NCBI GenBank assembly: GCA_008080735.1
Contig: SHMW01000005.1
Coordinates: forward strand, 88,145-104,353
Source of the DNA: Promethearchaeota archaeon
Lineage (GTDB): Archaea; Asgardarchaeota; Lokiarchaeia; Sigyniarchaeales; SOKP01
Length of the DNA: 16,209 bases
Direction: 5' to 3'
The translations under genes and the position numbers were made by a program. Below are positions 78 through 15,985 of this stretch, one piece after another; the stretch's first letter is position 1; each line of letters starts with the position of its first letter. Under the pieces are notes generated by a model, which searched no databases, was not told the DNA's origin, and saw only the letters and a list, made by a program, of their open reading frames with translations.

Positions 78-1664
78 TTATCCATTAGTATTATTATAAG
101 TTGTTTGCATTCCATCTGGGAAAATACCTGTACTACTTGCTTCAGTTATACCACTAGGCTCTATAACCCAAGTTACATTTCTAGAATAATTTCTATTAAT
201 AGGATTCCACGACTCTGTGTCTTGTGAAATATAATAATATCCAGCGTTTGGTTTAACAGCATTAATAATAGAAGATACATCTGGTTTATTAAAATACTGA
301 GAAGCTAAAGAAGACGATGTTATCCCTGAAGACAAAGGATTCATTAGCAGATCTATAGACAATTGACGTTCTGGTGTGGTTTTAGTCTCCATGTACTGCA
401 CAACTGGACCAGAAACTCTACCAGGAACATTAATCAACGCTATCACATCTGTAGGAGCTGTATCAACAATTGATATTTCTTCATTTAATGCATCAGAAAT
501 AATTTGACCAAGATAAGCTAGAAAGCCCCAAGAATATCTAACTAAACCATTAGTCATATCTTTTGTAACAGTCTTAGAAACTGGGTTGCTATTAATAGTT
601 ATCCCAGAAGAGGAAAACTGTTGTGCCCTACTATAAAGTTTATTTTGAACAATTTCCCATTCACTTTCAGCATTAGACAAAGCACCGCTTGTTTCTGTTA
701 TACGATCTTCATATCCAAATATAGTTCCAGTAAGTGTAATTTGTCTTTGATTTTGATTATTAGCATCAAAAGATTCGGTTAACTCCCATTCTTCTCTAGT
801 GTTACCATTTGGATTATATACAAAATTTTCGGTTAGTCCCCATGTATAAGATTCGGGATCAACATTTTCTGATAATTGATAATTATAAAAATTATTAAGA
901 CCAGAAACTCCTATCTGATCTTCAAGATCGCCATACTGATTTAATAATATATGAAACCAATCTTGAACATCTACAGTTGTTAAATTTATTTGATCACTAT
1001 GTTCTACAATAGGAGATAAGAAATTATCAGGATTAAATAAGTCATTTGTTCCAGAGGCAGTAGTAGCAATTAGAATGCCGCTCTGAACAACATAAGCATG
1101 ATCATAACACCAGTCTCTGGCGACACGCAACGCATCGTTAGAACCTGTGTCGGAATAACGATGTTTACCCACCGCTTCTAATGTATGCGTTATGTTGTAT
1201 GTGCCATTTTGTTGTTCATTTAAAGACCAATTCTCACTAGTTCCAGCAAGTTCTGTAATAGACTCACCGCTTACAGCAAATGACTTAAGACTAACGGTAT
1301 ATTCATTTCTATTGGTCCAAGTACCAGGAGAAAATCCAACATTATCTACTTGGCAATATGCTAACAAAGGGTGTCCGCTGGTGCTTGGTGCATCAATTTT
1401 TAATAACCCACCATCGGTGAATAAATTTCGTATTCTCGTTTGTTCATTTAACACACCATTCATGTCATTTCCTGGGTATCCACTTGCACCAGTAGAATCC
1501 AAGGTTTTGCCAACATTAACAATGGTTCCAGTTAATGTAAAATTATATTCAGGATGTAAAATAATACCATCTGAACCACGAACATTTGTTTTTGACCAAC
1601 TAACAAATGGAGCAGGTATTAAATAAGATTCAGTCCCGCCGCTAGGTGTATAACTAACTGGCAT
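78..1664 (-). CDS. Distal tail / tail-tip protein (Dit- or hub-like), 528 aa, internally repeated
   Basis: Directly follows the TMP with a TAATG overlap at 1664. Acidic, beta-rich S/T/N/G composition. TLTGTI occurs twice, 267 aa apart. Confidence 0.6.
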   Translation of the reverse strand: MPVSYTPSGGTESYLIPAPFVSWSKTNVRGSDGIILHPEYNFTLTGTIVNVGKTLDSTGASGYPGNDMNGVLNEQTRIRNLFTDGGLLKIDAPSTSGHPLLAYCQVDNVGFSPGTWTNRNEYTVSLKSFAVSGESITELAGTSENWSLNEQQNGTYNITHTLEAVGKHRYSDTGSNDALRVARDWCYDHAYVVQSGILIATTASGTNDLFNPDNFLSPIVEHSDQINLTTVDVQDWFHILLNQYGDLEDQIGVSGLNNFYNYQLSENVDPESYTWGLTENFVYNPNGNTREEWELTESFDANNQNQRQITLTGTIFGYEDRITETSGALSNAESEWEIVQNKLYSRAQQFSSSGITINSNPVSKTVTKDMTNGLVRYSWGFLAYLGQIISDALNEEISIVDTAPTDVIALINVPGRVSGPVVQYMETKTTPERQLSIDLLMNPLSSGITSSSLASQYFNKPDVSSIINAVKPNAGYYYISQDTESWNPINRNYSRNVTWVIEPSGITEASSTGIFPDGMQTTYNNTNG

Positions 1665-4600
1665 TAAAATCCTCCCTGTCTAACAACTTGCTCTTGTAAC
1701 GTTAATGGCTTGGTGTTCTTTGCATCTCGATAAGCACCGTCTAAAATACGCTGCAATGCTCTGTCAGTAGCATCAGCCGGATTAAGTTGCGATTTAAGTG
1801 CTTCAATTGTTCCAAGCACAACTTGTCGATTAACAGTCTGGTTATTTTGACCATTATCTTCAACATTAACATTTACATCAACATTAGTATTAGTTGAGTT
1901 TCCAGATATATTATTAATGTTTCTAGTTAAATTATTAATACTATTTGTGTTGCTAATTAAAGAATCAGATAATATATTTATTGGTCCAATCAATCTTTCG
2001 AAAGATGGTAAGTCATTTTGACCAAAATTATCTAGAGAATCACTAAGCCTACCCAAATTGTTAGTTAGTATTCCTTGTATCTTTGCTTGTTCGCTAAGCA
2101 GACGATCAATTTGATTTCCAGTTCTGTTTACTGCATCAGACAATCCTGAAGTAGCTAAACCAGCCTGTCCACCAAAAATATTTAAACCAGCACCGCGTAA
2201 AGCTGTTGCGATATCTGCAAACGATTGTGCAGTAACCCCTTGACCAATAGGAATATTTCCAAATAATTCCCCACCCCTTTGTATTTCCTGTAATATAGAT
2301 GGGTTAATTGTCCTAAACCTATCGATAAGATTGTTCAACACACCTGGGTCCAATTGCGGCAGTTGTCCAGCAGAAGTAACACCACGTAGTGGGCCTTGTA
2401 CAAACAATTGTCTAAATCTATTGAATTCAGATTGTATGATAACTTCCGCCCGTCTTATATCACTTGTTGGTGTAGTAGATAATCTTTGACGTTGAGATAT
2501 TTCTTTCTGCAACTCTTGAGAAAGATTGTTAAATCGCTGATTAAGTTCATTAACTAAATCACCGGATTGTTGCAAAGCAATATTAAAAGCATCTTGCGAT
2601 TCCCTTAGGTTGCTTAAAGCTATAACACGATCTCTCTGAGATTCCGGAGAAGTTCCTGCTCTTGTATTGGCCAATCTACTTCGTGCTTGCAGTAAATCAA
2701 AAGCAGATCCAATTAAATCAGGTTGTCCAATAAGCCCTAATATTCTAGATCTTCCACCTTCTATTTGTCTGACGCCAGCACCAAAACCTTGTTGTCGACT
2801 AATTCTAGAACGCTCAAGTTCGATAAAAGCACTTCTAGCCGCATTAGAAGATTCTAATAAAGCCTTTTGTCTTTCATATGAAATATTAATTTCTTTTATT
2901 TGATTATTTAGATTTTCAAAACTAGCTGAAACTCTTGATCTAATTATATTTTCAGTATTAAGTCCATCAACTAGAGATCGAACAACAGATCCAACGTCTT
3001 TTGATAACAAATCAGGATTTTGTTTAAACGATTGTTGTATATTTTCTGACACGGTTTGAATTAAATTACTGGCTTCATCAGACAAACTAGACCTATTAAA
3101 TTGATCTCTTAAAGCTCTTGATATACTCAGAGAAAGTTGTTCAGCAGATTCTTGAGTTATTTGACCACCAGATATTCTATTTTGTACAGAAGATAATATA
3201 TTTGTTAATTCATTTTGTATAGCAATAAATTCGGCTATTATCCTGTCGTTACCAATACCACCAGAGAATCTACCAATAGTTCCTTGAATCTCTCTAATAT
3301 TAGTAGATCTTACAGAAGATATACTTCCAACAATTATATCTAATATTTTATCTGGTAAATCAATTGTTCCAACATTTCCGCTTAGAGAAGATATAAATTC
3401 AGATTGAATATTAAGTACAAATCTTTGTGCTTCATTTCTAAGATTTAACTGTTCAGTCTGTTGTTCAAAAGAAAATAAGAATCCTCTGAAATTTCTGTTA
3501 AAAGTTAATAAATTTTCGGCAATTGCTCTATTAGCGTCGATAATTTTATTGCGTGCTTGCTGTGATTCTACGAAAGCACGTTCTGTCAAACCGGCAATTT
3601 GTCCAAAAACTTCTTCTAATGGAACTCCAGCATTAACAACAGCTTCTATTAATTTAGATCTTATGGCTGATCTTAGCTGTATATCGTTTACACCAGGTAT
3701 AGCAGTAGTAATTTGTACAGCTTGACGCCTACTAATACCAGTCAAAGTATTAATTTGCGTACGTGTTAATTCCTCTAAATTTCCACCGGTTTCTTCAAAT
3801 ATAGTTTTAAAAATTTGTCCAAAGTCATCAAATCTATCTATATCTAAACTTCCAGCTATAGTAACCAGTTCATTTAATGATCTTTCAAGTTCTTGGCCAC
3901 TATTTAAGATACCGGCAGATACAGCACCAATAGCTGCACCAATACCTGCTCCAGCCAATGTTCCTGGGCCTGGTGCAATCGCACTACCAATAGTGCCACC
4001 AAATATAGCACCAGTAGCAGCCCCTGAGAAACTTCCGACTGAACCAGATTGTCGTCTTCTAGCAGATATAATTCGTTCAAGATCTTCTGCCCTTATACTT
4101 CTTTGGTTGAATTCCGCCCTTGGTTGTCTGGAAAATACTGTTGCAAGTTGATCAAACACAAGGCTAGACAAAAACAATCCAATTTCTGGAGATATTCTTT
4201 GTACACCTCTGGATAAACCACCTGTAAAACGGCCAATTCTACCTCCAATACCCGTTCTTTCACGACGAATACGAGCAATATTTTGAGCACGCAATATAGC
4301 ACGATCTCTAACAGATCGTTCTCTTCTTAAAGATTGTGCGGCAGCATCTTGTGCTCTTGTTAACCTTTGTATTGATTCAGAATTACGACGTAAAAATCTA
4401 GGCAATCTTCTAAGTTGTCTTTGACTTCTGGCTAACGACACGCTATTGATCAAAAAGTTTTCAGGAAATACACGGCCTCCTGATGGACGACGTTGCAAAG
4501 CAGCAGATCTTGCAGCAATATTAGCCCTAATATTTGGTTGTGCCGCTAGTGCTATTCCACGTTGTGTTCGAGCTTGTGCTAATGCTCCTGAAGCTCGCTG

Positions 4601-6613
4601 TAATTCTAATTCCGCACGAAATATACCTTGATTGCGTCGTCTTTGTCTAAATTCTCTTATCGATTGATCGAGTGTTAAACCTTGTGATCGACCTTGGGTT
4701 GCAATAGAAGCTGTTAGTCCACGTGGATTAAAAAGAATTGCTCTTTGTGCTAAACTTTCGGTACTAGTTGCCACACCAGTAGCACCTTGTCTGGTAGCTC
4801 TAATAATATTTTGTCTATTATTTTCTTGAACTGCTGCGGTGTTAGTATTAACAGCTTGTGTATTACTACGAACACTGCTAACTAAAGCTTGTTGAGATCT
4901 TGGTACGGATTCTGACACCGATCCACCTGTTCCGGGTACGCTAGTACCTCTAAAGGCACCGGGTCGATATAGTTGTAGTCCAGCGGCAAAGCTTGGTAAA
5001 TTACGTACTGTTCCCGTAAACAATTTAATGCCAGCAAATTTAAGCAATGTTGGTAGTAATGGTTGTAATGCTGAGAGTGTACCGGATACAACACTTGTTA
5101 ATGCACCAAAATCCTGTACCAGTCTAGCTATAGCAGGATCTTCTGCCAATTGCCTAAACACATCCTGAAATCTAGTAGCAATTATCTGCAACTGTTTATC
5201 TATTCTTTGAAGTCCAATAACAGCATCGCGTTGTATAGATCCCGGACCTTTTGTTAAAGATATATCCAAAGCACGTTCAAATTGTTGAAAATTCTGAATT
5301 ATCGGTACAAAAACTTTACCTTGGCGTACTCCAGATATGTTTTCAACCAAACGACCAAATTGCTCTGGATTTAAATTATTAGAAACTTCGGCAATTTCTC
5401 TGAGCCTACTAGCTATACCTTTGAGTTGGCCCTCAGCATCTCTAGTTCTACCACCTGTTAATCGGTCGGTAAATTCAACAACATCAGGACGTAAAAGTCT
5501 TAATGAAAGAGTGTTAATAGACGTAGCAATTGTTGTTGTATCTAAACGAGTCACTTGTCTAATGGCAGCAACTAAAGCGGCAAATTCTTCTAAGGAGCCT
5601 CCTGCCGCACGGAATGCAGCACCACCACGTTGAACAGCGGTAAAAAGATTGCCAGCTTCAAAGGCAAAATTTTTCGACAGTTCGTTGGCTATATCTAACA
5701 CCCTTATAGTGTCAGAACCCGTTAAGTTAAATTGGTTTAAAACTGCAATAACACCAGTCGTCGTAGATTCGATATCATCAAAAGTTGCTGCTAAATCTGA
5801 TTGTGCTAGAGCAGACACGGCATCAAGCAAATCAGATTGTTCGCTAAATTTCTCACCGGACTGAGCTAATCTGGTGGTGATTGCAAATAATTCTTCTCCA
5901 GAAGCACCAAAGTTTTGTGCTATTTCAAATGTTTGTCTAGCAATATTTCGTGCCGTTTCTGCATTACCACCAAGAACTTGCGTTAGTCTAGTAATTTCAG
6001 TATTAATGTTTTTAACAGATTCAGCAGCAATGTTAAAAGCCCTACTAACTTGAAATATAGTGGTAGCTGGAATTAAATATGCTGCCAATCTAGTTGTACT
6101 AAAACCAATGCGAGATGCGAAATTATCTACTGACTCTGATGCTTCACGATGAGCAGAAGCAAATCTACGAACAGATTGTGTAGATTGTCTTGTTGCACGA
6201 GCGGCATCTTTTTGTACACGATTAGCTTCTTTAATTGGTTCTTGCAAACTTGATGCGGCTGGGCCAACAGCACCTGCTCGTGTTCCACTAGTAAAAGCTA
6301 CTCTAACAGATATAGGCTTTCGTCTATTAAAATATGCCTGAGCCTTTTGTATAAATTCACGTGCAGACCTTTGACTATTCGCACCAAATTTAAAATTAGC
6401 AGAATCAATTTTAATCTTGCGACGACTTAATACTTTTTCAATATCTTTTACATCAATCTGAGGACGAAGCTTAACTTTCTTCAGATCTCTTTGTATTTTT
6501 GAAGTATTGATAGTAACAGATAACTGTTTAAGACTTCTCTCAACAGATTGACGCAAACCCTTTGGGTTCGCAATATTAATACCAATACGAAGTTCGCCGT
6601 CTTTTTTGGCCAT
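1664..6613 (-). CDS. Tail tape measure protein, 1649 aa, with TP901-family (PhageMin_Tail-like) core
   Basis: Very long helical A/R/Q/S/I/L-rich ORF after the tube and chaperone genes. Approx. aa 195-375 (INTEITRLTQV...LAQSG...VLNQFNL...VLDIANELSKNFA...AVQRGGAAFRAAGGSLEEFAALVAAI...IATSINTLSLRL) matches the TP901-type core pattern. It has a glycine-zipper segment and an Asn-rich C-terminus. Confidence 0.92.
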   Translation of the reverse strand: MAKKDGELRIGINIANPKGLRQSVERSLKQLSVTINTSKIQRDLKKVKLRPQIDVKDIEKVLSRRKIKIDSANFKFGANSQRSAREFIQKAQAYFNRRKPISVRVAFTSGTRAGAVGPAASSLQEPIKEANRVQKDAARATRQSTQSVRRFASAHREASESVDNFASRIGFSTTRLAAYLIPATTIFQVSRAFNIAAESVKNINTEITRLTQVLGGNAETARNIARQTFEIAQNFGASGEELFAITTRLAQSGEKFSEQSDLLDAVSALAQSDLAATFDDIESTTTGVIAVLNQFNLTGSDTIRVLDIANELSKNFAFEAGNLFTAVQRGGAAFRAAGGSLEEFAALVAAIRQVTRLDTTTIATSINTLSLRLLRPDVVEFTDRLTGGRTRDAEGQLKGIASRLREIAEVSNNLNPEQFGRLVENISGVRQGKVFVPIIQNFQQFERALDISLTKGPGSIQRDAVIGLQRIDKQLQIIATRFQDVFRQLAEDPAIARLVQDFGALTSVVSGTLSALQPLLPTLLKFAGIKLFTGTVRNLPSFAAGLQLYRPGAFRGTSVPGTGGSVSESVPRSQQALVSSVRSNTQAVNTNTAAVQENNRQNIIRATRQGATGVATSTESLAQRAILFNPRGLTASIATQGRSQGLTLDQSIREFRQRRRNQGIFRAELELQRASGALAQARTQRGIALAAQPNIRANIAARSAALQRRPSGGRVFPENFLINSVSLARSQRQLRRLPRFLRRNSESIQRLTRAQDAAAQSLRRERSVRDRAILRAQNIARIRRERTGIGGRIGRFTGGLSRGVQRISPEIGLFLSSLVFDQLATVFSRQPRAEFNQRSIRAEDLERIISARRRQSGSVGSFSGAATGAIFGGTIGSAIAPGPGTLAGAGIGAAIGAVSAGILNSGQELERSLNELVTIAGSLDIDRFDDFGQIFKTIFEETGGNLEELTRTQINTLTGISRRQAVQITTAIPGVNDIQLRSAIRSKLIEAVVNAGVPLEEVFGQIAGLTERAFVESQQARNKIIDANRAIAENLLTFNRNFRGFLFSFEQQTEQLNLRNEAQRFVLNIQSEFISSLSGNVGTIDLPDKILDIIVGSISSVRSTNIREIQGTIGRFSGGIGNDRIIAEFIAIQNELTNILSSVQNRISGGQITQESAEQLSLSISRALRDQFNRSSLSDEASNLIQTVSENIQQSFKQNPDLLSKDVGSVVRSLVDGLNTENIIRSRVSASFENLNNQIKEINISYERQKALLESSNAARSAFIELERSRISRQQGFGAGVRQIEGGRSRILGLIGQPDLIGSAFDLLQARSRLANTRAGTSPESQRDRVIALSNLRESQDAFNIALQQSGDLVNELNQRFNNLSQELQKEISQRQRLSTTPTSDIRRAEVIIQSEFNRFRQLFVQGPLRGVTSAGQLPQLDPGVLNNLIDRFRTINPSILQEIQRGGELFGNIPIGQGVTAQSFADIATALRGAGLNIFGGQAGLATSGLSDAVNRTGNQIDRLLSEQAKIQGILTNNLGRLSDSLDNFGQNDLPSFERLIGPINILSDSLISNTNSINNLTRNINNISGNSTNTNVDVNVNVEDNGQNNQTVNRQVVLGTIEALKSQLNPADATDRALQRILDGAYRDAKNTKPLTLQEQVVRQGGF

Positions 6614-7401
6614 TACTTACTTTTCTTTTTTGTTGATTTTTTAGTTTTAACACAATCTTCAGTATAAGGTTTTTCTGGTTCTATATCACCAATAATATTA
6701 GATAAAGCATTTAAAGCTTCGCTTTCGTCTAAAGGATTCCCAAATTCATCTACATGCTCACCAGTATTAGGATCGATATATCGTAGGTTGTCGTCAACAA
6801 ATTTGTATTTCTTCAGCCACTTCACTTCTGGTAATTTGTTTTCAAAATCTGGATCAAAATCAAAAATAACCCTGTCGACCATATCAGACGATTTAGCATA
6901 AATATCAGTTAATTTATCATTTTTTAAATCATCAATGGTTTCCCAATATTTTTCTCCAGTATCAGGATCAACAATACAAGTGTGTATTATATAATCTTTT
7001 CTATCACGTTCAGCAATAGATTCTATAGTAGAGTCATCGAAAGTTTGACGTTTACGCATAATCTCAACTATTTTACTACGCAGTTTGGTAACTTCAATGG
7101 TTATATTTCTACCAGATTGCTTTGAAATTCCACCCTTGCGTAGTATGTTTAGTTTTTCATTAATTGTATTTTGAATATCTGAAATTGCTTTTTCATCTTT
7201 TTCTGTCCAAATACCACTTTCTTTCAAATAATCATCAACCTGAGATCTAACTAATAGCTTTTGTTTGTTATTACGCAAGATTTCTGCAACACGACCAGCA
7301 TAGTACATATCAGCATCTGATAGCTCTTGTGCTGTTATATTTTTTACCATTAATTTAATTTCTTTATCTTGATTGTCTTTAACAGTGAATTCATTATTCA
7401 T
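6613..7401 (-). CDS. Probable tail assembly chaperone, 262 aa (paralogue of 7717..8760)
   Basis: Charged helical protein immediately upstream of the TMP (TAATG overlap at 6613). AAGGA lies 8 nt before the ATG. It shares an 82-aa ungapped block with the 347-aa protein. Confidence 0.65.
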   Translation of the reverse strand: MNNEFTVKDNQDKEIKLMVKNITAQELSDADMYYAGRVAEILRNNKQKLLVRSQVDDYLKESGIWTEKDEKAISDIQNTINEKLNILRKGGISKQSGRNITIEVTKLRSKIVEIMRKRQTFDDSTIESIAERDRKDYIIHTCIVDPDTGEKYWETIDDLKNDKLTDIYAKSSDMVDRVIFDFDPDFENKLPEVKWLKKYKFVDDNLRYIDPNTGEHVDEFGNPLDESEALNALSNIIGDIEPEKPYTEDCVKTKKSTKKKSK

Positions 7402-7406
7402 ATCTT

Positions 7407-7727
7407 TTATCCTTGATCAAATTTAAAAACTGTCTGGTATCTATTCCAAACCACAGTATGCATATCTAATTCTTTCATAGCGTTTGATCGCTTACGATGC
7501 CCATAATTAAGTATATTAGCTCTGCATTCTTGCCATCGTTTACGCATTTCGCGTTCGTTATCAGTTAATTTATCATCAGTCTTACCATGTCCCCAAATAA
7601 AACCAAAATACTGTTCAAATTCTGAAAGAGGATGGATAATTACTGTTTCGAACTTTTTATTCATAATCTTCTTTAACCGCTCTAAATACTTAGCTTTCAT
7701 CTCTTCGTTTTCGTATTTACTTGGCAT
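7407..7727 (-). CDS. Hypothetical protein, 106 aa, basic and helical, in the tail chaperone locus
   Basis: ATG overlaps the end of the upstream gene by 11 nt and the ORF fills the gap in the operon. No family recognised. Confidence 0.7.
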   Translation of the reverse strand: MPSKYENEEMKAKYLERLKKIMNKKFETVIIHPLSEFEQYFGFIWGHGKTDDKLTDNEREMRKRWQECRANILNYGHRKRSNAMKELDMHTVVWNRYQTVFKFDQG

Positions 7728-8760
7728 TTTGTCTATTAACTCCTAATCTTAGTTCTTGCTTAACATCTCCGAAGTCCAAGTCACCACAAGTGCCTTTTTC
7801 GTTAATAACATCAGACCGACGTTTTTTATAATATTCTGCGACAGAACTATTTAACTTTCTAACCTCATCTATACTTTCTTCATCACACATAATAAATTTT
7901 TCATTTGACAATACTAACTTATTTGACTTATTGCTTATAGTATTATCTTGCTGATGGTTTTGCTCCTTTTTTAATCTATTTATCTCTAATTCATACCAAG
8001 CGTCAAATTCTGTATCGTTATCAATAACAGAATCACTTGGCTTATTTGTACTATCAAAAGCAAAGTCATATATTTTAGACCAAAAGCATAAATTATACTG
8101 GAGTTCTGTCATCTCCGTAGCAGCGTAGTTAAATAATGATGTGCCTGTCTCTTTTGCAACTACCCAATATAGTCGCCACGGATCTGTCCTAGATATTAAC
8201 CGTATATCTTTTTCAGATATAGCATTATCTCTATAATAACATACAACCAAAGTATCTATAAGAGATGGTTTTAGGTCTATATTTGGTGTTAAAATATTAG
8301 TATTTTTAGATATAATGAACCGTCTTTTAGCACGATCTGCTATAGATTCGGCAGTTTGATGATCAAAAGCATGTTTTTTATTATATAAACGTTCAATTTC
8401 AACATTAATCTTAGTCAAAATGTCATTAATTGCACGCTTACGTTTTTTGTGAAATTTTAAATTTGGTAATCTGTCTTGTAATTTCTTATATTCATTTTTA
8501 AATATTTCTAATCTATTTTCGTCTTCATCTGTCCAACGACCCTGTTCTTTTAACAGATCAATCGATTCAGAAACACTAAGGATACCATTATCCCGGCATT
8601 TTCTGTAGTTATAAGTATATATATAATCAGATTCCGCTAGCAATTCAAGAGTTGGATCGGCAACAATAGCGGAAATATCTTGATGATTGTACTGAAAATC
8701 AATACGCAATTTTCCATTTGAGATTCTCCGCACTAATCGTGCTCTTTCGTTTAAATCCAC
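7717..8760 (-). CDS. Probable tail assembly chaperone, 347 aa (shared N-terminal domain plus distinct C-terminal domain)
   Basis: GTG start with AGGA 9 nt upstream. First gene after the tail tube gene, the canonical chaperone position. Charged helical composition. The N-terminal half is paralogous to 6613..7401. Confidence 0.65.
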   Translation of the reverse strand: MDLNERARLVRRISNGKLRIDFQYNHQDISAIVADPTLELLAESDYIYTYNYRKCRDNGILSVSESIDLLKEQGRWTDEDENRLEIFKNEYKKLQDRLPNLKFHKKRKRAINDILTKINVEIERLYNKKHAFDHQTAESIADRAKRRFIISKNTNILTPNIDLKPSLIDTLVVCYYRDNAISEKDIRLISRTDPWRLYWVVAKETGTSLFNYAATEMTELQYNLCFWSKIYDFAFDSTNKPSDSVIDNDTEFDAWYELEINRLKKEQNHQQDNTISNKSNKLVLSNEKFIMCDEESIDEVRKLNSSVAEYYKKRRSDVINEKGTCGDLDFGDVKQELRLGVNRQNAK

Positions 8761-8830: not shown

Positions 8831-9841
8831 TTACAAACCAGCCGGATCAGAGTTTTGCGAAATTTCTAACGCATTTAGATTCTGGAATGAATACGATACT
8901 GTCATAACGCCACCGCCAGCATCGCCACCAGTCTGACTAATGGTTTGCAATTTATTCTTCGTCCCCAAATTAAACGTAGTACTATCTTCAAGTTTAATTA
9001 AAATTGGTTCGTCAGTAAGATTATCCACATCACTTCTGGCATTAACAAAATCACCCGGAGTGGTTCCACCCGGTGATGTGTTAATTGTACAATCAACTGC
9101 GATTGGAAAGTTTGCATAACGATAGTATGGATTCTTTCTGCCGAGTTCAAACAAATCATCACGATTAAAGTTGACAGAAATTGTTACATCTTGAACGTGG
9201 GCACTATATTCACCAGTGTTATCTGGGTTATATCCAGAACCATTAATGGTCTGCATACCCGGTATAAGTGTTGGCCAAACTGAAGCTGTGCCGCTGACGC
9301 CCATGATGACATCTTGGCGACGTTGAACACCAGACGCAGGTGAATCTGTTCCGTCAAATCCAGTAAGATTAACAAACGACGAACTACGCCAGACTTTATC
9401 ATTACCAACAAAGGTTACACTCTCTGTCGAGTTACCATCCACAGGTAATGTATAGTTAAGAGAGTTGGTGTACAAACCAGAACAATAGACTTGTGTTAAT
9501 GGTGTACCAGATGCATTAGACTGATCGTCATCGTATATATTCAACAGCATATCGGTTCTTAAATTTGACCGATTAACTAATTTGTTGCTACTAGCAGTTG
9601 GTGTAGCTAAATGCCATATAAGAGGATACCCATCTAAAACCTTTTCGATAGTTACCTCAACATCTGGCAAATTTTCAATATTTTCATAAATTTCTAATTG
9701 ACCAAGCTCAGTAACCTGCTCTAAGTTAAAAGAAGTATTTGTAGACACACTCTGTACACCATGAACTTCTGTGCCAGAGCCAGTAGAATACTCGCCTAGA
9801 GCAACTAATTGAGTGGCATAATGAACTCTATTAGCTGACAT
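8831..9841 (-). CDS. Major tail (tube) protein, 336 aa, two tandem tube-type domains
   Basis: Lies between the terminator-like gene and the chaperone/TMP genes. It has its own RBS (GGAG) and candidate promoter, and an acidic beta-rich composition. The motif VQxV.....FN.....ELG....Y....NxP is repeated at aa 29-59 and 216-246. Confidence 0.8.
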   Translation of the reverse strand: MSANRVHYATQLVALGEYSTGSGTEVHGVQSVSTNTSFNLEQVTELGQLEIYENIENLPDVEVTIEKVLDGYPLIWHLATPTASSNKLVNRSNLRTDMLLNIYDDDQSNASGTPLTQVYCSGLYTNSLNYTLPVDGNSTESVTFVGNDKVWRSSSFVNLTGFDGTDSPASGVQRRQDVIMGVSGTASVWPTLIPGMQTINGSGYNPDNTGEYSAHVQDVTISVNFNRDDLFELGRKNPYYRYANFPIAVDCTINTSPGGTTPGDFVNARSDVDNLTDEPILIKLEDSTTFNLGTKNKLQTISQTGGDAGGGVMTVSYSFQNLNALEISQNSDPAGL

Positions 9842-14572: not shown

Positions 14573-15664
14573 TTATATTTTCCTGATAAATCCAGTGTTT
14601 ATAAATGAAGCGAAACCGCCGCCACCTGTTGTGGTAGAACGTTGAACAGCACCCGCATCGGACGTAACGGAACCGTTTTTCTCGAACGGAAGTTGCTGGC
14701 CAGCGTCTATTGCCCCGGCACCACTGCCCGGTGTGAAGTCGTCGCCTGCTGCGTCATCGTATGCCGCAGTGCCCGTTGAACAATCGATCTCAGTCACGTC
14801 GGTTGATCCACCCGACGTGTTCGCATCATCGCCAGAACCGAAAACACACCGGATTGCATACCCAACTTGTCCATCTCCATCCATTCCATACTCGCCGTTG
14901 TTCGTGAACAGGCAATCAGTCGCCCAAACCGGCCCAGTTCCGACGCATAAGCCATCGGATTCATTCGAATCAAATGTACAGTTTTCAAAACAGCTATAGG
15001 AATTTGCTCGTGCACCACAGCCAGTTCCACCTGTCCCGTTGTTATAAAATACACAGTTAATGTAGCGGTTGCGTCCCTGAGCACCATCAACACCGTCATT
15101 AACATTTGAATCGAAAAAGCAATCGACACACATGGCCCTGCTTGGGTCCCTAAGACCTTTCCCCCCATTTAAGTCAAATTGGCAATGGCTGAAATTTTGA
15201 TCCGGTTCGTAATCCGCATCGAAGCCATTTCCAACGGCACCGGTAAACCTGCACCGCGACCAGCCGTTGTCGCCAGCGGATGAATCAAGATAGACGCAAC
15301 GATAAGCTAAACTGTTTCCGTCAAATACAAGGTTCGCAAAGCTAAGCCCGGTATGATTGATCGTCAATAGGTCGATGCCAAACCAGCCGCTGCTACTGGC
15401 CTGAATCGTTGCCCTCGTGCCATCGATGCCACCGGTCGAATTGCCGCCCGTAAACAACACGTCCAAGGACCCGGCGGACGTAAGAGCCGATCCAGATGCG
15501 ATAGAATGGGTGCCGTCCGCACAGATTACAACAACGTCACCGGCGGATAATACACCAGCGTTACATTCATCGAGGGCTTTCTGGATCGTTGCCCAGCCAG
15601 CGGCGAACGAGGTGCCAGCGTTGGAATCACTGCCGCCGGATTGTCGAACGTAATACGTCGCCAT
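14573..15664 (-). CDS. Right-handed parallel beta-helix (pectin-lyase-like) spike, putative polysaccharide-binding protein or depolymerase, 363 aa
   Basis: The N-terminal YYVRQSGGSDSNAGTSFAAGWATIQKA is the classic cap of beta-helix proteins. Repeated rungs: NLVFDGN, RCRFTGA, HCQFDLN, DCFFDSN, NCVFYNN, NCTFDSN, DCLFTNN, RCVFG. C-terminal DF...GAIDAG...DAGAVQ cap motif. Confidence 0.8.
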   Translation of the reverse strand: MATYYVRQSGGSDSNAGTSFAAGWATIQKALDECNAGVLSAGDVVVICADGTHSIASGSALTSAGSLDVLFTGGNSTGGIDGTRATIQASSSGWFGIDLLTINHTGLSFANLVFDGNSLAYRCVYLDSSAGDNGWSRCRFTGAVGNGFDADYEPDQNFSHCQFDLNGGKGLRDPSRAMCVDCFFDSNVNDGVDGAQGRNRYINCVFYNNGTGGTGCGARANSYSCFENCTFDSNESDGLCVGTGPVWATDCLFTNNGEYGMDGDGQVGYAIRCVFGSGDDANTSGGSTDVTEIDCSTGTAAYDDAAGDDFTPGSGAGAIDAGQQLPFEKNGSVTSDAGAVQRSTTTGGGGFASFINTGFIRKI

Positions 15665-15900
15665 CTTTTAGCTCGCACTCAAAGGCCGAACACAGGGCTT
15701 GTTGATCACGTCCGCAACGCCCGCTTGGTCAAGCTGCGTCTGATACGCCTGCAACTGCGTGACCAGATTCGCAACGTCAGCAGCGGTCAACCGCGAAATT
15801 CCCTCAGCCTCCCGGCCGTCGGCAATCGAATCATCAGCCGAACTGCCGATGGTCGTACCGATCCCGCCGTTCCAGTCAACCAGAGTCGCATCAACTTCAG
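14610..15900. other. GC-rich island (likely recently acquired module)
   Basis: Hand counts inside: 39/60 GC at 14701-14760, 26/60 at 15001-15060, 38/60 at 15781-15840. Flanks: 16/60 at 14521-14580 and 16/60 at 15901-15960. Confidence 0.85.
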
Positions 15901-15985
15901 CTTTCAAAGCTCTAAATTTCTCACTTAATGGTCTAATTTGTTCATTACAGAATTTTATTGCTTGTGTGTTTGTAATGTCTGGCAT
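15668..15985 (-). CDS. Hypothetical protein, 105 aa, helical; possible partner/adaptor of the beta-helix spike
   Basis: ATG 5 nt after the upstream stop, and stop 3 nt before the spike ATG. Two amphipathic helices flank a DGREAEG loop. Function is inferred from co-transfer with the spike gene. Confidence 0.7.
   Translation of the reverse strand: MPDITNTQAIKFCNEQIRPLSEKFRALKAEVDATLVDWNGGIGTTIGSSADDSIADGREAEGISRLTAADVANLVTQLQAYQTQLDQAGVADVINKPCVRPLSAS

What the first reader, a model, noticed from the sequence alone, without database searches (positions are those of the whole stretch)
1664..6613. A 1649-aa tape measure protein purged of Met, Cys, Trp, His and Tyr
Seen: the translation has no Met after the initiator, 0 Cys, 0 Trp, 1 His and 5 Tyr in 1649 residues, while Phe is abundant. 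The effect is protein-specific. The 336-aa tube protein has 4 internal Met, 2 Cys and 3 Trp, and at that Met rate about 20 Met would be expected in the TMP. The 528-aa neighbour is Trp/Tyr-rich. Genome-wide sulfur sparing or GC bias therefore cannot explain it. Established: TMPs are often Cys-poor but normally contain Met, and Met, Cys, His, Trp and Tyr are the side chains most reactive with singlet oxygen and hypohalous acids, whereas Phe is comparatively inert. Inference: the protein ejected into the host envelope is under selection to be chemically unreactive. This could reflect an unrecognised oxidative, halogenating or residue-targeting host defence, or photo-oxidative stress on the virion. 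Avoiding internal starts could explain the Met loss but not the others.
Basis: partly seen in the sequence, partly recalled or inferred. Interest (0 to 1): 0.85.

Follow-up and report, generated by a model that had tools for sequence, protein, structure and literature searches.

The report
Phage tail ruler shuns oxidisable residues
The long protein that sets tail length and forms the DNA-injection channel in a family of uncultured phages has repeatedly lost almost all of its five most easily oxidised amino acids, which suggests selection for chemical inertness, but the cause is not shown.

Summary
Confirmed: the 1649-aa tape measure protein (TMP; PF10145, beside a T5-type tube) has 0 internal Met, 0 Cys, 0 Trp, 1 His, 5 Tyr, 79 Phe. 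It lies on a bacteriophage contig from marine sediment, probably mis-binned into an archaeal genome. Zero Cys is ordinary for TMPs and ejection proteins. The loss of Met (0 vs 40 expected), Tyr (5 vs 33), Trp, His and much Lys is not. It is a family trait: in 170 relatives the five residues sum to 0.1-8.6% (29 below 1%; query 6th lowest), versus 2.3-9.3% in 37 unrelated TMPs. Met, Tyr, Trp and His rise and fall together on the tree and trade against Phe/Ile/Leu, at unchanged bulk and hydrophobicity and independent of GC. The near-zero state changes about 14 times. Neighbouring genes barely follow. Best reading (0.45): weak selection against redox-reactive side chains in an exposed, unrepaired, low-copy injection protein. 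A cost-times-decay economy fits the same list. Photo-oxidation is unsupported (sediment source; Met-rich relatives in ocean-water data), and no evidence points to a dedicated host defence. Not found in the papers searched or elsewhere in this scan.

The parts
1664..6613 (-). Tape measure protein gene, 1649 aa; M0 C0 W0 H1 Y5 F79 K39 R163
   Evidence: PF10145 E 3.6e-20; seven PHROG TMP families; no indels in two runs
5336..5920 (-). PF10145 (PhageMin_Tail / TP901-type TMP core), residues 232-426
4934..6226 (-). Conserved all-helical region, residues 130-560; most of it is predicted with high confidence
   Evidence: AlphaFold2 mean pLDDT 88.4, 19 helices; no significant PDB fold match
6077..6079 (-). 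Tyr179, a retained Tyr at a conserved Phe/Tyr column; shows that the purge is not absolute
   Evidence: column is F116/Y42 in the family and Y in 11 of 22 purged members
3905..3961 (-). Only strongly hydrophobic segment (residues 885-903), in a Gly/Ala-rich stretch; candidate membrane-inserting hairpin (inferred)
   Evidence: Kyte-Doolittle mean 1.72; sequence
8831..9841 (-). Major tail tube protein, T5 pb6 / P74-26 type (non-contractile tail); not purged
   Evidence: model pLDDT 74; Foldseek E 2e-7 to T5 tube, 1.6e-6 to P74-26 tube; composition
6613..8760 (-). Three genes (262, 106, 347 aa) between tube and TMP; tail assembly chaperones by position only; not purged
   Evidence: conserved order in related loci; no Pfam or PHROG hit
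78..1664 (-). 528-aa gene after the TMP, tail-tip region by position; Trp/Tyr-rich control
   Evidence: no family hit

Best explanation
The gene is an ordinary-function TMP of a long non-contractile tail. Its unusual composition is kept by weak, protein-wide purifying selection against redox-reactive side chains (Cys, Met, Trp, His, Tyr, more weakly Lys), which are replaced by inert look-alikes (Leu/Ile/Phe; Arg for Lys). Shown: the composition, its family-wide graded nature, the joint rise and fall of the residues, and the replacements. Inferred: the reason. A TMP sits as a few extended chains in the tube and is then ejected to span the cell envelope, so its side chains are exposed, there is no repair in a virion, and one oxidation or cross-link along about 1600 residues could jam ejection. 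Most of the chain tolerates substitution, so even a very small benefit per site can empty it of these residues. The strength of the pressure differs between lineages, probably with host or niche. The oxidant and the place of damage (virion in the environment or host periplasm) are unknown.
For: The depleted set is discrete: W, M, Y, H (and C) are 2.9-6 log2 units down in purged members while every other residue stays within 0.75. Independent contrasts over 160 relatives: H-M 0.43, M-Y 0.42, M-W 0.38, W-Y 0.37, H-W 0.36 are five of the six strongest positive pairs; M-I -0.49, M-F -0.47, M-L -0.38, Y-F -0.35. They persist after control for fourfold-site GC, appear between separate regions of the protein and in sign tests on terminal pairs (W-H 30/38, Y-H 33/49). 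Total hydrophobic content (rho 0.05) and mean volume (rho 0.01) do not track the purge. In rich members the residues are spread along the chain, not in an added domain. Neighbour genes span only 7.2-11.6% and lack the Y-F, M-W and Y-H pattern. Published HOCl reactivity order is M~C > H > W > K >> Y > R (10.64898/2026.06.17.732355); the query also has the lowest Lys after residue 600 of 160 relatives. The lambda TMP is six extended chains that form much of the trans-envelope channel (PMC12617516).
Against: No oxidant or habitat link shown. The source is marine sediment in an assembly binned with an archaeon, and the phage carries a B12-dependent reductase; both fit a low-oxygen niche (inference). 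A 5%-Met relative occurs in ocean-water studies. Across prokaryotes only Cys tracks oxygen (PMC2515869), and Met rises under oxidative load in animals (PMC10967345). Lys does not follow in many purged members (8-9% in L037, L056, L057). Longer TMPs are slightly less purged (rho +0.26), against a simple target-size argument. The same residue list tops a cost-times-decay scale (PMC4209132). M-Y co-variation is weak in the smaller locus set (0.19) and in the sign test (32/50, p 0.06).
Confidence: 0.45

Rival explanations
1. Economy: the TMP is a long, loosely constrained protein that sheds residues that are costly to make and keep (cost times chemical decay) or scarce in a given host; no damage to the virion is involved.
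For: Krick et al. rank W 892, C 741, H 536, M 446, Y 350, K 242 as the top six, then F 208 (PMC4209132), exactly the depleted set. Cost-times-decay correlates with depletion (rho -0.53, p 0.02). TMP and neighbour contrasts correlate at 0.41, so there is a phage-wide component. Virion genes of this phage have half the Met, Cys and His of the early genes. Extracellular proteins are known to be economical (PMC2932507).
Against: Plain ATP cost is not lower than the family median (21.06 vs 20.99); Phe, Ile and Arg are enriched; the pattern is a step, not a slope. A TMP is a low-copy protein, while the high-copy tube and other long late proteins keep these residues. The decay term of that scale is itself chemical reactivity, so the two readings overlap.
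Confidence: 0.2
2. Structural or transit constraint: packing in a T5-type tube lumen and refolding into a membrane-spanning channel disfavour Trp, His, Cys (and less strictly Tyr, Met); Phe serves as the anchor residue. Lineages differ in how the chain packs.
For: The tube is T5-like and T5 pb2 has C0 W2 H2. Cys is absent from nearly all TMPs and ejection proteins. Phe and Trp act as TMP anchors (PMC3271669). W and H are low throughout the family (medians 0.05 and 0.23%).
Against: Volume and hydrophobicity do not change with the purge. Tyr to Phe and Met to Leu/Ile hardly alter shape. T5 pb2 keeps 36 Met and 30 Tyr. Well-supported sister sequences differ fivefold (P0152 1.09 vs P0144 5.39).
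Confidence: 0.15
3. Counter-adaptation to a specific host defence in the envelope (an oxidase or haloperoxidase, copper or iron chemistry at Met/His/Cys/Trp/Tyr, or Lys conjugation).
For: The trait switches often (14 parsimony changes), as host-dependent traits do. It is focused on the ejected protein. The Lys-to-Arg shift in the query's subclade resembles escape from Lys conjugation; a ubiquitin-like defence that modifies a tail protein is known (10.1101/2023.09.04.556158), though its target is the central fibre.
Against: No host identified, no defence gene linked. Ejected proteins of T5, T7, P22, lambda, SPP1 and others are not purged. Tyr179 and several other sites persist, so selection per site is weak; ambient chemistry would suffice.
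Confidence: 0.12
4. Photo-oxidative (singlet oxygen) stress on free virions in sunlit water.
For: The five residues are the textbook singlet-oxygen targets (own knowledge). Two purged relatives come from one KOPF15-1 sample, which I recall as coastal surface water (study identity from memory).
Against: The query comes from marine sediment. A 5%-Met clade is found in LUOE20-1, LINN22-1 and Tara data. Exposed capsid and tail proteins, which light would hit first, are not purged.
Confidence: 0.04
5. Mutational or translational by-product: AT bias, codon reassignment, or avoidance of internal starts.
For: TMP Met correlates with GC3 across loci (rho 0.59) and with fourfold GC in contrasts (0.37).
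Against: Position-specific base frequencies predict M14 C31 W5.5 H41 Y41. GC3-matched unrelated TMPs have 3.3-9.3%. ATG occurs 31 times and TGG 86 times out of frame. In-frame GTG/TTG are at normal rates (p 1.0, 0.8) and their lack of a ribosome site is within chance (p 0.19). ATA columns are not Met columns (0.6% vs 2.3%).
Confidence: 0.04

Closest known systems
TP901-type tape measure proteins (Pfam PF10145; lambda gpH, T5 pb2, TP901-1 TMP, SPP1 gp18)
   Same: PF10145 core above the curated cut-off, position after tube and chaperone genes, helical, Ala/Gly/Gln-rich, no Cys; T5 pb2 also has very little Trp and His.
   Different: The cultured TMPs tested hold 1.9-4.3% Met and 3.95-8.4% of the five residues; 37 unrelated TMPs never go below 2.3%. 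This one has 0.36%, and no clear Trp/Phe repeat period was seen.
Podovirus ejection proteins (T7 gp14-16, P22 gp7/16/20)
   Same: Ejected into the envelope; 0-1 Cys and mostly little His.
   Different: Rich in Met, Tyr and Trp (sum 5.6-8.7%), so the purge is no general property of ejected proteins.
Economical extracellular proteins (FliC, CsgA, FimA; PMC2932507) and the cost-times-decay proteome model (PMC4209132)
   Same: Fewer Met, His, Trp; the depleted list equals the top of the cost-times-decay scale.
   Different: Those proteins also lose Phe and Arg and are very abundant. This TMP is low-copy, gains Phe and Arg, and is no cheaper than its family.
Oxidation-avoidance in proteomes (PMC2515869; PMC10967345)
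   Same: Same candidate residues.
   Different: Those studies find only Cys avoided with oxygen; here Met, Tyr, Trp and His move together in one protein family.

Membership tests
Tape measure protein (PF10145 type) | PF10145 match above gathering score | tested here: met
   73.1 bits vs cut-off 33.2, residues 232-426; PHROG TMP families
Tape measure protein (PF10145 type) | Long gene directly after tail tube and chaperone genes | tested here: met
   tube fold matches T5 and P74-26 tubes; order conserved in related loci; chaperone labels are by position only
Tape measure protein (PF10145 type) | Mainly alpha-helical | tested here: met
   model of residues 130-560 nearly all helix, pLDDT 88; rest not modelled
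Tape measure protein (PF10145 type) | Gene length sets tail length; protein is ejected and forms a channel | not testable with these tools
   needs virions; inferred from lambda (PMC12617516)
W/F-periodic repeat TMPs (11/18-residue units, PMC3271669) | Regularly spaced Trp/Phe markers | tested here: not met
   no Trp; Phe spacing counts show no dominant 11- or 18-residue peak; no tandem array of that kind
Economical extracellular proteins | Lower mean synthesis cost, with fewer aromatic residues including Phe | tested here: inconclusive
   cost 21.06 vs family median 20.99 and unrelated TMP median 21.73; Phe enriched; cost-times-decay 86 vs 110
Counter-defence against an oxidative or halogenating host system | A host enzyme or system that tracks the trait and damages the protein | not testable with these tools
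   host unresolved; no defence gene linked
Virus of the archaeon in whose assembly it lies | Archaeal-type genes, integration or spacer match | tested here: not met
   contig C5 encodes bacterial-type DnaE, DnaB, DnaG, SSB, GluRS, RuvB; only 4 of 122 ORFs hit the rest of the assembly and the one short DNA match lies in the reductase gene

The most novel reading that the evidence does not exclude
In a widespread family of uncultured large siphoviruses the ejected tape measure protein is repeatedly stripped of all oxidisable side chains because certain hosts or niches attack the incoming injection channel chemically (an undescribed oxidative, halogenating or metal-based envelope defence). TMP composition would then be a sequence marker for that chemistry.
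Probability: 0.15. Interest if true: 0.85.

Novelty: new variant of a known kind. Interest (0 to 1): 0.55.

Why it matters
Proteome-wide studies find little avoidance of oxidisable residues apart from Cys. This family offers a rare natural series (0.1 to 8.6%, with repeated switches and close sister pairs) in which Met, Tyr, Trp and His move together in one protein while bulk and hydrophobicity stay fixed. It makes testable whether chemical damage to the injection apparatus limits phage fitness, and where that damage occurs. If the driver is in the host envelope it would point to an undescribed defence chemistry. If it is economy or ambient decay, it is a clean but more modest example of residue-level selection.

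Tried and rejected
Assembly or frame artefact: rejected. Alternative genetic code: no in-frame stops, and ATA columns are not Met columns; the contig encodes a PP-loop, TilS-like protein. DNA motif avoidance: ATG and TGG are common out of frame, and CAR, TTG, GTG codons are normal. GC bias: rejected. Sulfur sparing: explains neither Trp, His nor Tyr; neighbours keep Met at 1.0-2.2%. Size or hydrophobicity: flat. Added enzyme domains as the source of co-variation: residues are spread evenly in rich members. Other purged proteins in related loci: almost none (lowest of 322 non-TMP ORFs: one at 1.8%, a 281-aa ORF at the edge of L047, then 3.4%); head genes are missing from contig C5, so internal head proteins of this phage were not tested. 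Host assignment by RuvB relatives and by tube relatives in genomes led nowhere. Habitat look-up of JGI sample numbers in papers failed. PDB sequence and fold searches for the TMP core gave nothing significant. Literature searches for a described TMP composition bias found none. Promoter, terminator and repeat scans showed nothing above chance.
Full report
Observation. The finding's coordinates hold one minus-strand frame of 1649 aa. After the initiator it has no Met, Cys or Trp, one His and five Tyr, with 79 Phe, 39 Lys and 163 Arg. The other window genes predict about 18 Met, 16 Cys, 20 Trp, 16 His and 75 Tyr. At 0.36% it is the lowest of 1625 long ORFs in the assembly. Contigs of two runs cover it without indels.

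What it is. The protein matches PF10145 above cut-off and seven PHROG tape measure families. Residues 130-560 fold as a confident all-helical region with no solved relative. The 336-aa gene upstream folds like the T5 and P74-26 tail tubes, so the tail is most likely long and non-contractile. The window ends a 104-kb contig that encodes bacterial-type DnaE, DnaB, DnaG, SSB, GluRS, RuvB and a B12-dependent ribonucleotide reductase, while the rest of the assembly is archaeal. It is therefore a bacteriophage, probably mis-binned. Both runs that hold it are marine sediment of one study. The host could not be assigned.

The right baseline. In 37 unrelated TMPs, 31 have no Cys; medians are Met 2.35, Trp 0.49, His 0.56, Tyr 1.85%, and the sum never falls below 2.29%. 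TMPs and ejection proteins of T5, lambda, TP901-1, SPP1, L5, Mu, T7 and P22 have 0-1 Cys and sums of 3.95-8.7%; T5 pb2 has only 2 Trp and 2 His but 36 Met and 30 Tyr. So the missing Cys is ordinary and low Trp/His has precedent. Against this baseline Met (0 vs 40), Tyr (5 vs 33), Lys (39 vs 129), Trp (0 vs 8.7) and His (1 vs 9.4) remain low. The baseline is small and leans to Bacteroidota-related and archaeal-bin prophages plus a few isolates.

A family trait. Among 170 relatives of 900 aa or more the sum ranges from 0.12 to 8.6%, median 2.4; Cys is absent in 162 and Trp in 64; the query is sixth lowest and the only one with no internal Met. Twenty-nine are below 1%. On a tree of the conserved region the near-zero state is scattered, needing 14 parsimony changes (many deep nodes are weakly supported, so this count is approximate). 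Well-supported sisters differ up to fivefold, and P0010, 40% identical to the query, has 63 Met.

A coordinated axis. In 159 independent contrasts, five of the six strongest positive pairs among all 190 are H-M, M-Y, M-W, W-Y and H-W (0.36-0.43), and these residues trade against Phe, Ile and Leu. Where rich members have Met, purged members have mostly Leu, Ile or Phe; where they have Tyr or Trp, mostly Phe; these are also the usual exchanges among rich members, so the replacements are conservative, not special. The pattern holds after control for GC and, more weakly, in sign tests on 50 terminal pairs. Total hydrophobic content and mean side-chain volume do not change. Neighbouring tail genes vary only from 7.2 to 11.6% and lack most of the pairwise pattern, though their sum correlates with the TMP's at 0.41. 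The depletion is a step: W, M, Y, H and C drop 3-6 log2 units, everything else stays within 0.75, with Lys a weak sixth.

What is excluded. Base composition predicts dozens of these residues, and GC3-matched TMPs keep them. ATG and TGG are not avoided as DNA words. Alternative start codons are used normally. ATA is not read as Met by the evidence of aligned columns. Plain synthesis cost equals the family median.

Mechanism. What the five residues share, and Phe/Ile/Leu lack, is easy oxidation; the published HOCl order is Met~Cys, His, Trp, Lys, Tyr, Arg (10.64898/2026.06.17.732355). A TMP lies as a few extended chains in the tube and then forms much of the channel across the envelope (PMC12617516). 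I infer that its side chains are exposed and unrepaired, that one lesion or cross-link can block ejection, and that in a loosely constrained chain a very small per-site benefit is enough. Tyr179 survives at a conserved column, which fits weak rather than absolute selection. I give this 0.45. The same list also tops a cost-times-decay scale (PMC4209132), so an economy reading (0.2) cannot be separated by sequence alone. A packing constraint (0.15) probably explains Cys and part of Trp/His. A dedicated host defence (0.12) has no direct evidence. Photo-oxidation (0.04) conflicts with the sediment source and with a 5%-Met clade in LUOE20-1, LINN22-1 and Tara data (I recall the first two as open-ocean studies), although two purged relatives come from one KOPF15-1 sample (recalled as coastal surface water). 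Published surveys find only Cys avoided with oxygen (PMC2515869; PMC10967345), which counts against an easy oxidation story but also makes the pattern unusual.

Verdict. A real, statistically strong and apparently undescribed compositional trait of a known kind of protein. It belongs to a family, not to this one gene, and it switches repeatedly. I found no paper on it and no other note in this scan. The cause is unproven. New variant of a known kind; interest 0.55.

Noticed in passing
G000 contig C5 (window is C5:88145-104353): A 104-kb bacteriophage contig with bacterial-type replication genes sits in an archaeal (probably Asgard) assembly; likely mis-binned. Head genes are not on the contig.
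   Followed up: yes
window 1664-4813 (TMP residues after 600): Strong Lys-to-Arg shift: 1.2% Lys after residue 600, lowest of 160 relatives (median 7.2%); Arg 9.9% overall; net charge +48. Shared by the closest relatives but not by all purged members.
   Followed up: partly
window 14573-15985: Two genes (363-aa beta-helix protein, PF13229, with 15 Cys; and a 105-aa protein) have GC 0.51-0.52 and GC3 0.5 against 0.33 and 0.2 for the rest; probably recently acquired.
   Followed up: no
window, all 15 main genes; C5 late region: All 15 window genes end in TAA; 19 of 21 late ORFs end in TAA versus 62 of 101 early ORFs.
   Followed up: no
L025:3510-8234 (C5:58510-63234): DnaE is split into two ORFs (687 and 512 aa) with two unrelated ORFs between them.
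   Followed up: no
L022 and L023 (C5:1-40000): The phage carries a TilS-like PP-loop protein, GluRS, IMP dehydrogenase, RuvB, class II ribonucleotide reductase and tRNA-Arg and tRNA-Gln genes.
   Followed up: partly
L135:4845-12023 and L142-L151 (P0024-P0029, P0193): An ocean-water clade of the same TMP family is Met-rich (4.6-5.0%) while Cys, Trp and His stay low: the opposite extreme for Met.
   Followed up: partly
L029:3949-7732: In the most purged relative (0.12%), a LAGLIDADG gene and four other genes lie between the tube gene and the chaperone-like genes.
   Followed up: no
window about 3900-4050: Gly/Ala-rich hydrophobic stretch in the TMP (residues about 860-903) resembling a glycine-zipper membrane hairpin.
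   Followed up: partly
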